DNA of 14,004 nucleotides from Candidatus Anstonellales archaeon (GTDB lineage Archaea; Micrarchaeota; Micrarchaeia; Anstonellales; J096), in the NCBI GenBank assembly GCA_038740615.1, contig JAVYLQ010000013.1, positions 1 to 14,004 on the forward strand. Reading direction: 5' to 3'. Every line of letters begins with the position of its first letter. The first letter of the stretch is position 1. Below are positions 6,001-9,000 of the stretch, piece by piece. Position numbers: made by a program.

Positions 6001-9000
6001 GTAATAGATTGGGCTTGGTGATCACTAAAACACCAGAACAGACGGATAGGGAGTTGGAGAGAATTGTACCAAATAGTCTAAAACCTGAATTTAACAAACA
6101 TCTAGTTGCATTAGGTCAGAGTATATGTAAAGCCAGATCTCCAAAATGCAAAATCTGCCCTGTAAATAGCATGTGTAAGTATTTTTTAAAAACATCATGA
6201 TTATATAATTGGTTGGGTAGGCGGGGGCTAGGGGTCCCCTATCCGCAAATATCCCCTTAGCGGGCCACATGGGGAGGTGTGGTAAGGCCCTCATGATAGT
6301 TGCTGTAGGGCAGATGAGTCGGCACCTCCACAATAACCATCTACACTGAACCGGGTCAGGCCGAAAGGAGCATCCCTAAGGTGTAGGTGGTTGTTTGTGG
6401 AGATTGCTAAGATGATGTCTAAAGTAACGATTCATGGGCAAGCCTTATCGCTCCCTCCCCTCCCAACCACGTCAGGTGATAAATATGATAATATCAGCCG
6501 GAATAATTCTAATCAAAGATGGGTCGATACTTTTACTTAGAAACAGAAAAGGACATATAGACTTTCCAAAGGGTCATGTCGAGGAGGGGGAATCAATTCT
6601 CGAGGCCGCTATTCGAGAGTTTAAGGAAGAAACAGGTCTTAGTGATAAAGACATATACATCATTCCAGGAAAAGAGTATGTTATGGAATACCCTGTATTA
6701 GAAAAGGGTGAGATTCAGAATAAGAGAGTGATATTATTTTTAGCTAAATATGTGGGAAAAGGTGAGGTAAAGATTTCAAAAGAACATTCCGAGTATAAAT
6801 GGGCTCCATTGGATGAAAAACTAGAAGGGGAGCTGAAATACCGCGAACAGAAGAATATAATAAAACAGCTTTTAAAAGACATTCAGGAAATAAAGTAAAT
6901 ATGGTAAGTTCTGAGTTAGAGCCATTAGTTAAAATGGCATATGATAGTAATCCAGCAATCAGAAAATACGCTGCTGAAAGATTGGTGGAGTTTGCAGATG
7001 AATTGGCGTATCAGATACTATTAGAACTAGCTAATGATAAAGATGAATCTGTGAAAGAGACTGCAAAGAGATCAATAGAGATCTTCAAGGAGAAGCATGC
7101 AGATAAGATGCAAAAACCACTCTCTGATAAATTACCAGCTATAATATCTGGCAATCAGCAGCAGGAAACTACTGAGCCAAGGACTCCTATATACTTTGAA
7201 ACTGTAGATACTCGTGAGTCTCATCAGAAAGAGGAGAGAAGAGAGTTTAATCTATTCGAATATGTTTATTCATCGCTAGATAGATATAGGGAAAGACCTG
7301 AGGTGATGAAAAAGCATTTTGAGAATTTACGAGATTATATTACTAAAGAGATGAACTTAATATATGAATTAATACAGAGTGAAGATTCTTTTGATATAAC
7401 AAAGATAAAGAATAAGATGAAGATAATAAATACAGGTGAGTTGAAAGTCAAGGATAAAGTTCTTAAGGAATTTGTAGAGAAGAAGAATAGGAGAAAAATA
7501 AAAATGTACAGATTATTAGTAGAAGATAAATATGGTAGAGAGGGAATTGTGTATGTGTATGAATCTGCAGCAAAAGAGATCAATCAAGGAGATGTGATAA
7601 AAATCATTAATTGTGAGGCTAGATCTATAGTTGGAACTGATGAGACTGCTATATGGGTATGGAAAGAGGAATCTGAAATATGGAAGAGGATCTAAACCTA
7701 TATGACAAATCAAATAGCATTCTAGTAGTGGGTGTTTCTAGGGATAATACTAAATACGGCAGTAAAATATTCCAAACCCTAATGCTAGAAGGGTATAATG
7801 TGTATGGATTTGGAAGAGAAAAAGTGCATGAGAGAGTCTATACCTCTCTACAAGAGTTACCTGATTATTACGATCTTGTTATTATTGTAATACCTCCTTC
7901 AACTCAGAAGAATATAATAGAATGGATAGCTAAGAGCAAAGTAAAAACCGTATGGTTTCAACCTGGAAGTGAATCACCAGAACATATAGAATATTTAGAA
8001 CAGCATGGGAAGAGAGTTATCAGAAATATGTGTTACATAAAAGACGGATTGAGAATCTCTTTCAGACTCTAAAATATACAATGCGTTACGTTAAACCTCT
8101 AAGAATACCTATATATCAGATACCCAGCAAGAGATACATAAAAGAAGATCAGGCAGACGAGTTTTTCCAGAATAGATTAGTAGTTGAGGAGAAAATGGAT
8201 GGCACTATGAAACATATAAAGATAGATAAGTTTATATTACATGTTGAGGATTTGCTTCACAGGAAAACGATTCCATATAGAGTCCCTGCCAGATATGCTC
8301 TATTCGATATCTATGATACTGAAGAGAATCTGATATTAGGCAGGGATGATAGAATTACTGTGTTTAAAGATCTGATTAAAAAAGATCCAGCTTTAAAATA
8401 TAAGATCTTCCATGTACCTGAACTAGAGAGAGGAGTATTCAATTGGAGAGAAGATCCTATAAGAATAGCGGATTCACCATCTAGATTTGCAGATCAGAAG
8501 ATGCAGATTAGGAAAATGGAAGGGGTTGTATTCAAGCTAGAACAAACTATTAAGATCACAGAGGAGATTGTTAAATATTTGAAAATAATAAATGCAAAAT
8601 TTGTAAATGATGAGTTCTATAGGAATATGCAACCTCAAAAAATTAAAGGATGTAATGTAATTGATCCCAGTGTTCTGGTGATACTGGAAAATCAATTGCA
8701 TATGACTAAAGAGATATTATAGAGTTGCTGTCCTGATCGATTCATAATATATCTTTGAAAAGATATTTTTCTAGTTGAATCAGGTGGACACGAACCTATT
8801 GTACTGGTAGAAACACCTGTAGAAGGAACTATGCTAATTGTTAAATTCAATCTATATCTCCTCTCAAGTATTCCGATTTTACTCGAAATAGCAGCTATAT
8901 CATCTGTTCTCAAGTATCCCTGTTGATCTAAAATACCGACAATCGGATCTGATGAGAATAGCAGTCTAGATACTTCATGAGCTCTCATTAGGAATAATTG

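What a model noticed while it worked through the whole genome (the two positions that open the first line are those of the whole stretch)
6210..6469. SRP RNA without helix 6 and no SRP19
The signal recognition particle RNA of this archaeon (260 nt) has the Alu domain, helix 5 and helix 8 but no helix 6, the hairpin that binds SRP19 in described archaeal and eukaryotic SRPs, and no SRP19 gene is found in it or in any Micrarchaeota genome searched. Its SRP is thus a two-part particle (SRP54 g00050 plus RNA) of the Bacillus type, a natural counterpart of the finding that SRP19 is dispensable in Haloferax.
Evidence so far: rna.tsv calls it by the bacterial large-SRP model (RF01854, 65.9 bits); against Archaea_SRP RF01857 it scores 54.5 bits (cut 96.5) and the 40 model positions between the 5' strand of helix 5 and helix 8 are deleted. 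RNAalifold on the 16 SRP RNAs of family J096 (260-267 nt, calls 81, 83): helix 8 (columns 140-193, compensatory changes in most pairs) starts 6 nt after helix 5 (columns 129-133 with 201-204). SRP RNAs of G142 and G032, other families of the order (127 and 122 bits), show the same 40 positions replaced by 1 and 0 nt. In 31 genomes of the phylum at >=92% completeness 30 have an SRP RNA of 260-312 nt, 26 of 30 under 280 nt, against 317 model positions. SRP19 PF01922: 0/19 of the fa [...]
(Added by a program. Inside this text positions count along the whole contig: contig position 1 is position 1 of the stretch shown here. "Call 12" and the like, gene names such as g00115 and contig names such as C1 are that model's own, and its searches are not shown. 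The text may have been shortened before it was handed on; [...] marks where a part breaks off. The agent that wrote the report below was given it as the finding of a first reader that could run no searches.)

Follow-up and report, generated by a model that had tools for sequence, protein, structure and literature searches.

The report
Archaeal SRP RNA without helix 6
This is the real gene for the RNA core of the protein-targeting particle (SRP) of a tiny archaeon, in a trimmed form that lacks the arm which normally holds protein SRP19, and that protein is missing too, here and in several hundred related small-genome archaea.

Summary
Window 6210-6469 (+) is a genuine 260-nt SRP RNA. It has helix 1, the Alu domain (helices 2-4), helix 5 and helix 8. 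Helix 5 runs straight into helix 8, so there is no helix 6. Four lines agree: the Rfam alignment (40 model positions replaced by 0 nt), the single-sequence fold, a genus-level consensus fold, and covariation across 36 RNAs of 16 families.

SRP19 (PF01922) was not found in the own genome, by the tool or by an unfiltered HMM search of all six-frame ORFs. It was found in 0 of 401 genomes of the phylum. The same search found it in 93 of 101 genomes of a control phylum, and in 15 of 16 archaea whose SRP RNA has helix 6.

Two further small-genome phyla show the same pair of absences (0 of 151 and 0 of 31).

SRP54 (N, G and M domains) and FtsY are present. The likely particle is SRP54 on helix 8, as in Bacillus. 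That it has only two parts is inferred.

No paper found links the two absences. PF01922 appears only as a "missing CheckM marker" for other DPANN groups. Earlier notes of this scan reported the same on other DNA.

The parts
6210..6469 (+). SRP (7S) RNA gene, 260 nt
   Evidence: RF01857 matches 6210-6469 over model positions 1-317. RF01854 matches 6212-6467. Fold z-score -6.9. Metatranscriptome contigs lie wholly inside it: 6233-6464, 6219-6460 and 6243-6409.
6210..6217 (+). Helix 1, 5' strand; pairs with 6462-6469
   Evidence: Single-sequence fold. Genus consensus fold, columns 1-8 with 265-272, with compensatory changes.
6220..6266 (+). Alu domain: helix 2 (6220-6222 with 6264-6266), helix 3 hairpin (6223-6239), helix 4 hairpin (6243-6263)
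   Evidence: The loop-loop pairing of helices 3 and 4 (A2 columns 24-28 with 47-51) is 98.9% paired across 36 RNAs.
6271..6341 (+). Helix 5, 5' strand
   Evidence: Most pairs show compensatory changes.
6341..6342 (+). The place where helix 6 would branch off; 0 nt are present
   Evidence: In the RF01857 alignment 40 model positions are replaced by 0 nt. Consensus folds have no hairpin here.
6342..6384 (+). Helix 8: symmetric loop CAGG (6357-6360) / AGCA (6369-6372), 2-bp apical stem, GAAA tetraloop (6363-6366)
   Evidence: The CAGG and AGCA loops are almost unchanged across the 36 RNAs (AGCA identical in all); the apical stem pairs show compensatory changes.
6385..6460 (+). Helix 5, 3' strand
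6180..6192 (+). A/T-rich box about 18-30 nt upstream of the RNA start; candidate archaeal TATA box (inferred)
   Evidence: Read directly from the sequence. Not tested.
5592..6200 (+). Upstream neighbour: endonuclease III-like gene; not part of the SRP
   Evidence: Pfam HhH-GPD and EndIII_4Fe-2S.
6485..6898 (+). Downstream neighbour: NUDIX hydrolase gene. The listed ORF start at 6434 lies inside the RNA; ATG 6485 is the likelier start.
   Evidence: Pfam NUDIX on 6485-6895; ORF list.
6091..6333 (-). Spurious 80-aa ORF lying over the RNA gene
   Evidence: No Pfam family. It overlaps the RNA and the end of the endonuclease III gene.

Best explanation
The window holds the housekeeping SRP RNA of a Micrarchaeota archaeon, in a reduced architecture. 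It keeps helix 1, the Alu domain (helices 2-4), the long helix 5, and helix 8 with its conserved symmetric loop (CAGG/AGCA) and a GNRA-type tetraloop. Helix 6 is absent. The gene for its only known ligand, SRP19, is absent as well.

Shown here: the RNA anatomy and its covariation; the phylum-wide absence of SRP19, with working positive controls; and the presence of an intact SRP54 (N, G and M domains, with the RNA-binding motif SRxxRIAxGxG kept) and of FtsY.

Inferred: the M domain of SRP54 binds helix 8 directly. The RNA-SRP54 particle recognises signal sequences on the ribosome and docks to FtsY, as in bacteria with a large (Bacillus-type) SRP RNA. The Alu domain presumably still reaches the elongation-factor site. 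Helix 6 and SRP19 were lost, or never gained, together, because each has no known role without the other. The same state holds in at least two further small-genome archaeal phyla.
For: RNA anatomy. The Rfam alignments delete the helix 6 positions in the window. They do the same in other families of the phylum (1, 0 and 3 nt) and in two genomes of other phyla (L121 0 nt, L141 1 nt). Control RNAs from Sulfolobales and Thermoproteota fill those positions. The single-sequence fold is an unbranched rod. The genus consensus has 85 pairs, 39 compensatory. The phylum consensus has 58 pairs, 55 compensatory, 87.5% paired against 66.1% in shuffles, with 0 of 500 shuffles reaching it.

Position of helix 8. 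In 68 of 71 RNAs of the phylum the helix 8 apex motif begins at RNA position 145-170, against about 192 in a helix-6-bearing control. The three exceptions carry insertions elsewhere.

SRP19 absence:
- own genome: none at E<=10
- own genome, unfiltered HMM over 3796 ORFs: best E 4.3
- no SRP19-like ORF beside the ribosomal S8e gene, where it sits in two control genomes
- 0 of 401 genomes of the phylum
- 0 of 151 and 0 of 31 genomes in two other phyla

SRP19 controls: 93 of 101 genomes of a Thermoplasmata-containing phylum. It was found in 15 of 16 genomes with a 304-325 nt SRP RNA (one of the 16 cut by a contig end), against 0 of 11 with a 261-294 nt RNA.

Partners. SRP54 is 395 aa with SRP54_N, SRP54 and SRP_SPB domains; its nearest solved relatives are archaeal SRP54. 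FtsY is present.

Expression hint. Contigs of three metatranscriptome runs from two studies lie wholly within 6219-6464, colinear with the DNA.

Literature. SRP19 is dispensable in Haloferax, and archaeal SRP54 binds the RNA without it (passages of PMC2905702 and PMC6098224).
Against: The own genome is only 83% complete, so its own lack of SRP19 is weak taken alone.

PF01922 missed the Sulfolobus acidocaldarius control genome. It also missed 8 of 101 control-phylum genomes and 1 of 16 helix-6-bearing genomes. A very divergent SRP19 therefore cannot be strictly excluded.

No structure probing or particle purification exists. Other proteins could bind the RNA.

Related genomes are not independent. 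The tallies reflect perhaps three evolutionary events, not 583.

The metatranscriptome contigs cannot prove transcription or define the ends of the RNA (caveat).

In the own genus the helix 8 tetraloop has drifted to GAAA, GAUA and a GUUA-like loop. It is unclear how FtsY docking tolerates this.
Confidence: 0.82

Rival explanations
1. SRP19 is present but too diverged for PF01922 and for my own profile. It would bind somewhere other than helix 6, for example helix 8 or the extra 3' hairpin seen in some families.
For: DPANN proteins evolve fast. The search missed SRP19 in the S. acidocaldarius control and in 8 of 101 control-phylum genomes. Some families carry a new hairpin next to helix 8 that could be a protein site.
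Against: No hit above noise in 583 genomes of three phyla. None in an unfiltered HMM search of every ORF of the own genome. The five weak hits lie in unrelated ORFs: four in frames of 285-1159 aa, the fifth in a 124-aa ORF that looked like a winged-helix regulator (read by eye). The RNA element that SRP19 recognises is gone, and the window's own family has no extra hairpin.
Confidence: 0.07
2. An unrelated protein has taken over the scaffold role of SRP19 and helix 6, or binds the Alu domain as HBsu does in Bacillus. The particle would then have more than two parts.
For: The Alu domain is fully kept, with covariation. In Bacillus and in eukaryotes Alu domains carry proteins (recalled, not from a call). 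Nothing here tests for unknown partners.
Against: No archaeal Alu-binding protein is mentioned in the review passages read (PMC2905702). Archaeal SRP54 binds the RNA alone in vitro (same passages). No conserved small gene sits beside the RNA gene; the window's neighbours are endonuclease III and NUDIX.
Confidence: 0.15
3. The RNA is a bacterial large SRP RNA, present through contamination or horizontal transfer, because it passes the bacterial model's threshold and fails the archaeal one.
For: RF01854 scores 65.9 bits, above its cut-off of 60. RF01857 scores 54.5 bits, below its cut-off of 96.5.
Against: By E-value the archaeal model wins (9.6e-12). Relatives of the same phylum score up to 127 bits on the archaeal model with the same deletion. 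The gene was found in 132 of 151 genomes of the phylum. SRP54 is closest to archaeal SRP54. Genome contamination is 0.4%. The bacterial model simply has no helix 6 to penalise.
Confidence: 0.01
4. Helix 6 exists but is added after transcription or lies elsewhere, for example a split or permuted gene as in Thermoproteus, so the genomic copy only looks truncated.
For: Permuted SRP RNA genes are known in Thermoproteus (PMC4731332; title and abstract seen in a search listing). A few relatives carry unexplained insertions inside helix 8.
Against: The metatranscriptome contigs are colinear with the DNA across the helix 5 / helix 8 junction and show no joints. Helix 5 pairs continuously on both sides of helix 8, with covariation, which leaves no open junction. 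Only one SRP RNA match was found in the own genome.
Confidence: 0.02

Closest known systems
Canonical archaeal SRP (7S) RNA, Rfam RF01857 (for example Methanocaldococcus jannaschii, Sulfolobus)
   Same: It shares helix 1, the Alu domain with loop-loop pairing, helix 5, and helix 8 with CAGG/AGCA loops and a GNRA-type tetraloop. It has an archaeal SRP54 partner and FtsY.
   Different: There is no helix 6: 40 model positions are replaced by 0 nt. The RNA is 260 nt against about 305-325 nt. There is no SRP19. The apical stem of helix 8 has 2 bp instead of 3 in this phylum. The score falls below the Rfam threshold.
Bacterial large SRP RNA of the Bacillus type, Rfam RF01854
   Same: The set of helices is the same: 1-5 and 8, without helix 6. 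The match covers model positions 1-256 and passes the family threshold. No SRP19 is involved.
   Different: The organism and its SRP54 are archaeal. The sequence is closer to the archaeal model by E-value. The Bacillus partner HBsu (recalled) was not looked for, and no equivalent is known here.
Haloferax volcanii SRP19 deletion strain (Yurist, Dahan and Eichler 2007; cited in PMC2905702 and PMC6098224, passages read)
   Same: It shows that an archaeal SRP can work without SRP19.
   Different: That is a laboratory deletion in an organism that keeps helix 6. Here both the protein and its RNA arm are missing in nature, across whole phyla.
CheckM marker lists in DPANN genome papers (PMC8421398 Woesearchaeota; PMC10134863 Parvarchaeales and Jingweiarchaeales; methods passages read)
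   Same: They record PF01922 as universally missing in those lineages.
   Different: It is given only as an accession number, for completeness estimates. There is no mention of SRP19 by name, of the SRP RNA or of helix 6. Micrarchaeota are not covered in those passages.

Membership tests
Archaeal SRP RNA (RF01857) | Score at or above the Rfam gathering threshold (96.5 bits) | tested here: not met
   54.5 bits, E 9.6e-12, over model positions 1-317. Of 151 genomes of the phylum, 27 reach the threshold despite the same deletion.
Archaeal SRP RNA (RF01857) | Helix 1 and an Alu domain (helices 2, 3, 4) with loop-loop pairing | tested here: met
   The loop-loop helix is 98.9% paired across 36 RNAs.
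Archaeal SRP RNA (RF01857) | Long helix 5 supported by covariation | tested here: met
   55 of 58 consensus pairs carry compensatory changes; 0 of 500 shuffles reach the observed values.
Archaeal SRP RNA (RF01857) | Helix 8 with a symmetric loop and a GNRA-type tetraloop (the SRP54 M-domain site) | tested here: met
   CAGG at 6357-6360, GAAA at 6363-6366, AGCA at 6369-6372. The two loops are almost unchanged in the 36 RNAs, AGCA identical in all.
Archaeal SRP RNA (RF01857) | Helix 6 (the SRP19 site) branching between helix 5 and helix 8 | tested here: not met
   40 model positions replaced by 0 nt. No hairpin appears in the consensus folds. Control RNAs do fill these positions.
Bacterial large SRP RNA (RF01854) | Score at or above the gathering threshold (60 bits), with the full set of helices and no helix 6 | tested here: met
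   65.9 bits over model positions 1-256.
Bacterial large SRP RNA (RF01854) | Bacterial descent | tested here: not met
   The gene was found in 132 of 151 genomes of an archaeal phylum, and its relatives score up to 127 bits on the archaeal model. SRP54 is closest to archaeal SRP54.
SRP19 (PF01922) | A gene matching the family in the genome | tested here: not met
   Own genome: none at E<=10; unfiltered HMM search best E 4.3. Phylum: 0 of 401. Controls: 93 of 101.
SRP54/Ffh | N domain, SRP-type GTPase domain, and M domain with the RNA-binding motif | tested here: met
   PF02881, PF00448 and PF02978 on the 395-aa ORF at L001:1438-2625(-).
Two-component SRP (SRP54 plus RNA only) | No further protein in the native particle | not testable with these tools
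   This needs purification of the particle. It is only inferred here.

The most novel reading that the evidence does not exclude
The helix-6-less, SRP19-less particle may not be a late reduction. It may be the ancestral archaeal state, shared with Bacteria of the Bacillus type and kept by the small-genome (DPANN) lineages. Helix 6 and SRP19 would then be an invention of the stem leading to the other Archaea and to eukaryotes.

Three phyla uniformly lack both parts (0 of 583 genomes), and none of them shows a remnant of helix 6. That fits this reading as well as it fits a single early loss. I could not sample the remaining DPANN phyla, and the root of the Archaea is disputed.
Probability: 0.15. 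Interest if true: 0.85.

Novelty: new variant of a known kind. Interest (0 to 1): 0.58.

Why it matters
Reviews state that SRP19 occurs in all archaeal groups and coexists with helix 6 (PMC2905702, passage read). Here a large part of archaeal diversity has neither: three phyla, with SRP19 found in 0 of 583 genomes searched. The archaeal and eukaryotic 'S-domain core' of SRP19, helix 6 and helix 8 is therefore not universal in Archaea.

This has four consequences:
- It is a natural experiment on how SRP54 and helix 8 assemble without the clamp.
- It gives a character for the debate on whether DPANN branch early.
- It explains why these RNAs are mis-called as bacterial, or missed, by Rfam thresholds.
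- It explains why SRP19 fails as a completeness marker in these groups.

Tried and rejected
- Weak PF01922 hits in the phylum (5 of 151, E 0.007-0.35). Four lie in frames of 285-1159 aa and the fifth in a 124-aa ORF that looked like a winged-helix regulator next to an ABC transporter; the 285-aa frame looked TFE-like (both read by eye). Rejected.

- A profile of three control SRP19s searched against the own genome and four others found nothing. The tool notes that such an empty answer proves nothing by itself.

- The long SRP RNAs (288-312 nt, 20 of 132 in the phylum) were tested as possible holders of helix 6. None has it. The extra sequence is a hairpin 3' of helix 8, an insertion in the Alu or helix 5 region, or an insertion in the apex of helix 8.

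- In the second phylum three RNAs of 309-320 nt looked, in the Rfam alignment, as if helix 6 were present. Reading the sequences shows an insertion inside the 5' strand of helix 8. No SRP19 was found in them at E<=10.

- A scan for a bulge-helix-bulge intron motif at these insertions found no motif whose removal restores a normal helix 8.

- G319 ('uncultured archaeon', 1.1 Mb, helix 6 and SRP19 both present) was examined as a possible DPANN lineage keeping both. Only three of the 120 listed relatives of its SRP19 carry an organism name (a Methanobacteriota MAG, a record titled SAR86 cluster bacterium, a Tara Oceans record), so its lineage was not established and it was not used.

- The single genome-collection scan returned mostly bacteria, so other DPANN phyla could not be reached.

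- A covariance model of my own was not built, because a 260-position model would exceed the calibration limit.

- Text of PMC7203096 beyond its first 300,000 characters, which holds its three mentions of SRP19, could not be read.
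Full report
WHAT IS THERE

Window 6210-6469 (+) lies in the 284-bp gap between an endonuclease III-like gene (5592-6200) and a NUDIX gene (likely start 6485).

Rfam's bacterial large-SRP model matches 6212-6467 at 65.9 bits, above its threshold of 60. The archaeal model RF01857 matches 6210-6469 end to end at 54.5 bits, below its threshold of 96.5, with E 9.6e-12. 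In that alignment the 40 model positions between the 5' strand of helix 5 and helix 8 are replaced by 0 nt.

The minimum-energy fold is -128.3 kcal/mol with z -6.9, and 0 of 200 shuffles fold as well. It consists of a terminal helix, three Alu helices and one unbranched rod that ends in CAGG / CC-GAAA-GG / AGCA. An 80-aa ORF on the minus strand over the RNA has no family and is spurious.

COMPARATIVE SUPPORT

Four of five other genomes of the same genus have an SRP RNA of 260-264 nt. Their consensus fold with the window RNA has 85 pairs, 39 with compensatory changes. It shows helices 1, 2, 3, 4, 5 and 8 only.

In a sample of 151 genomes of the phylum, 132 have a match. All but one cover the full length of the model. 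Of these, 96 are at most 274 nt, 16 are 275-281 nt and 20 are 288-312 nt.

I collected 71 of these RNAs: all 36 of 275 nt or more, 34 of the shorter ones, and the window. An alignment of 36 RNAs from 16 families gives 58 consensus pairs. They are 87.5% paired, against 66.1% in shuffles (0 of 500 reach it) and 39-51% when partners are slid. Compensatory changes occur in 55 of the 58 pairs. One uninterrupted helix leads from helix 5 into helix 8.

Direct Rfam alignments show 1, 0 and 3 nt at the helix 6 place in three further RNAs. Control RNAs from Sulfolobales and Thermoproteota fill these positions with a regular hairpin.

THE LONGER RNAS ARE NOT EXCEPTIONS

The helix 8 apex begins at RNA position 145-170 in 68 of 71 RNAs, against about 192 in a control with helix 6.

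In parts of three families the 3' remainder is 112-133 nt instead of 95-101 nt. The cause is a variable hairpin inserted directly after the 3' strand of helix 8. One genus has insertions in the Alu and helix 5 region, and the Rfam alignment again gives 0 nt at helix 6. Two RNAs carry 49 nt in place of the helix 8 apex.

SRP19

PF01922 finds nothing at E<=10 in the own genome, which has 542 kb in 31 contigs and is 83% complete.

I built an HMM from 123 SRP19 sequences: three from control genomes plus 120 relatives. I ran it without filters over all 3796 six-frame ORFs of at least 40 aa. The best E-value is 4.3.

In two control genomes SRP19 sits next to the ribosomal protein S8e gene. In the own genome the S8e gene has no such neighbour.

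Across the phylum PF01922 is found in 0 of 401 genomes at E<=0.001. That set includes 188 genomes at least 90% complete, 155 genera, and 16 genomes of the window's family besides the own genome. In the earlier sample of 151, five weak hits (E 0.007-0.35) appeared: four in frames of 285-1159 aa, the fifth in a 124-aa ORF that looked like a winged-helix regulator (read by eye).

DOES THE SEARCH WORK?

Among the tool's named control genomes, SRP19 is found above threshold in three of four archaea. Sulfolobus acidocaldarius is missed. In a sample of the phylum around a Thermoplasmata genome it is found in 93 of 101.

For 27 archaeal genomes reached through a helix 8 pattern scan, I compared RNA type and SRP19 presence:

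| SRP RNA type | Genomes | SRP19 found |
|---|---|---|
| 304-325 nt, or cut by a contig end but covering helix 6 | 16 | 15 |
| 261-294 nt | 11 | 0 |

The 15 positives include a Sulfolobales genome. The 11 short-RNA genomes are titled Micrarchaeota (6), Woesearchaeota (3), Nanoarchaeia (1) and Pacearchaeota (1) in their public records. These genomes are related to one another, so this is a pattern and not a statistic.

In the phylum of a genome titled Woesearchaeota, 142 of 151 genomes have an SRP RNA. Of those, 137 are 263-278 nt. SRP19 is found in 0 of 151. Three RNAs of 309-320 nt there carry an insertion inside the 5' strand of helix 8, not a helix 6, and no SRP19 is found in those genomes at E<=10.

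A third phylum-level group of 31 small genomes has SRP RNAs of 266-278 nt in 29 of 31, and SRP19 in 0 of 31. Its identity is not told. One member is titled Micrarchaeota in its public record, and that member's RNA has 0 nt at helix 6.

PARTNERS AND EXPRESSION

The own genome encodes a 395-aa SRP54 with N, GTPase and M domains. Its RNA-binding motif is kept, and its closest solved relatives are archaeal SRP54. It also encodes FtsY.

In three metatranscriptome runs from two studies, single contigs of 232, 243 and 167 nt lie entirely inside the RNA gene (6233-6464, 6219-6460, 6243-6409). They are colinear with the DNA. A DNA run covers the whole 6100-6600 stretch. By the tool's own caveats this is only a weak hint of a discrete transcript.

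HOW IT MOST LIKELY WORKS

Shown: the RNA keeps every element that bacterial SRPs need. These are the helix 8 loops that hold the M domain, a terminal tetraloop, helix 5 and the Alu domain. The RNA lacks only the SRP19 arm.

From established knowledge: archaeal SRP54 binds its RNA without SRP19, and SRP19 is dispensable in Haloferax (passages in PMC2905702 and PMC6098224).

Inferred: SRP54 and this RNA form the working particle, which docks to FtsY as in Bacillus-type bacteria. Whether another protein joins it cannot be told here.

WHAT IS IN PRINT

Eight literature searches were run. None found a paper describing an archaeal SRP RNA without helix 6, or discussing the loss of SRP19 in DPANN archaea.

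- The 2010 review states that SRP19 genes were identified in all archaeal subgroups and coexist with helix 6 (PMC2905702, passages).
- Two genome papers list PF01922 among CheckM markers missing in all their genomes: 152 Woesearchaeota (PMC8421398, methods passage) and the Parvarchaeales and Jingweiarchaeales (PMC10134863, passages). Neither comments on it.
- A nanohaloarchaeal paper lists Ffh, FtsY and the SRP RNA but no SRP19 (PMC10266531, passage).
- Supplementary tables of these papers were not read and may list SRP19 presence or absence.

Earlier notes of this scan describe the same trimmed RNA on other DNA. I treated those notes as leads and re-tested the claim here.

VERDICT

The observation and the interpretation stand. 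The finding is a new variant of a known kind: a natural SRP without SRP19 and helix 6, general to at least three small-genome archaeal phyla. Mechanistically it is unsurprising. It does correct a textbook generalisation, and it bears on early archaeal evolution.

Noticed in passing
L040 (G139:C14:4307-4618, minus strand) and L041/L208 (G074:C17:2523-2827, minus strand): Two Micrarchaeota SRP RNAs from different families carry 49 nt where the 6-nt apex of helix 8 should be (CAGGCC[49]GGAGCA). The two insertions share their ends. Removing 45 nt after GGAA would restore a normal apex in one of them, but no canonical bulge-helix-bulge intron motif was found. It is unexplained: either an unusual intron or a branched helix 8.
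   Followed up: partly
L202, L203, L204 (G197:C4, G170:C97, G242:C4; phylum of the Woesearchaeota-titled genome): Three SRP RNAs of 309-320 nt have a 36-50 nt insertion inside the 5' strand of helix 8 (after GGUCA, before GGCC) and a non-GNRA apical loop. The insertion sits in the SRP54 binding region. The Rfam alignment misplaces it at the helix 6 positions.
   Followed up: partly
For example L056 (G024), L062 (G057), L046 (G125), L038 (G006); families f9, f10, f11 of the phylum: A lineage-specific extra hairpin of 14-35 nt sits directly after the 3' strand of helix 8. It makes a three-way junction that mirrors the usual position of helix 6. Its shortest form is GC-GNRA-GC, with GCAA, GAAA or GAGA as the loop.
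   Followed up: partly
window 6361-6368 and the 71 RNAs of the phylum: In this phylum the apical stem of helix 8 has 2 bp (CC/GG) instead of the usual 3. In the collection scan, 5 of the 7 matches to the 19-nt form of the pattern were records titled Micrarchaeota. Within the window's own genus the tetraloop has drifted from GGAA to GAAA, GAUA and a GUUA-like loop.
   Followed up: partly
L073, L066, L042 (G014, G032, G017; one genus of family f6): These RNAs have extra hairpins inserted between helices 3 and 4 of the Alu domain. In G017 there is also one in the 5' strand of helix 5, which lengthens the RNA to 312 nt.
   Followed up: no
window 30-102 (minus strand): An ordinary tRNA gene (70.6 bits).
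   Followed up: no
L085:451-534, L120:84-167, L003:1845-1928: In three Micrarchaeota records a tRNA gene lies within about 100 nt of the SRP RNA gene. This is not the case in the window.
   Followed up: no
L198:1486-2167 and L213:1483-2150: SRP19 lies immediately downstream of the ribosomal protein S8e gene in two unrelated control genomes. This gene pair is useful for finding divergent SRP19s by position.
   Followed up: partly
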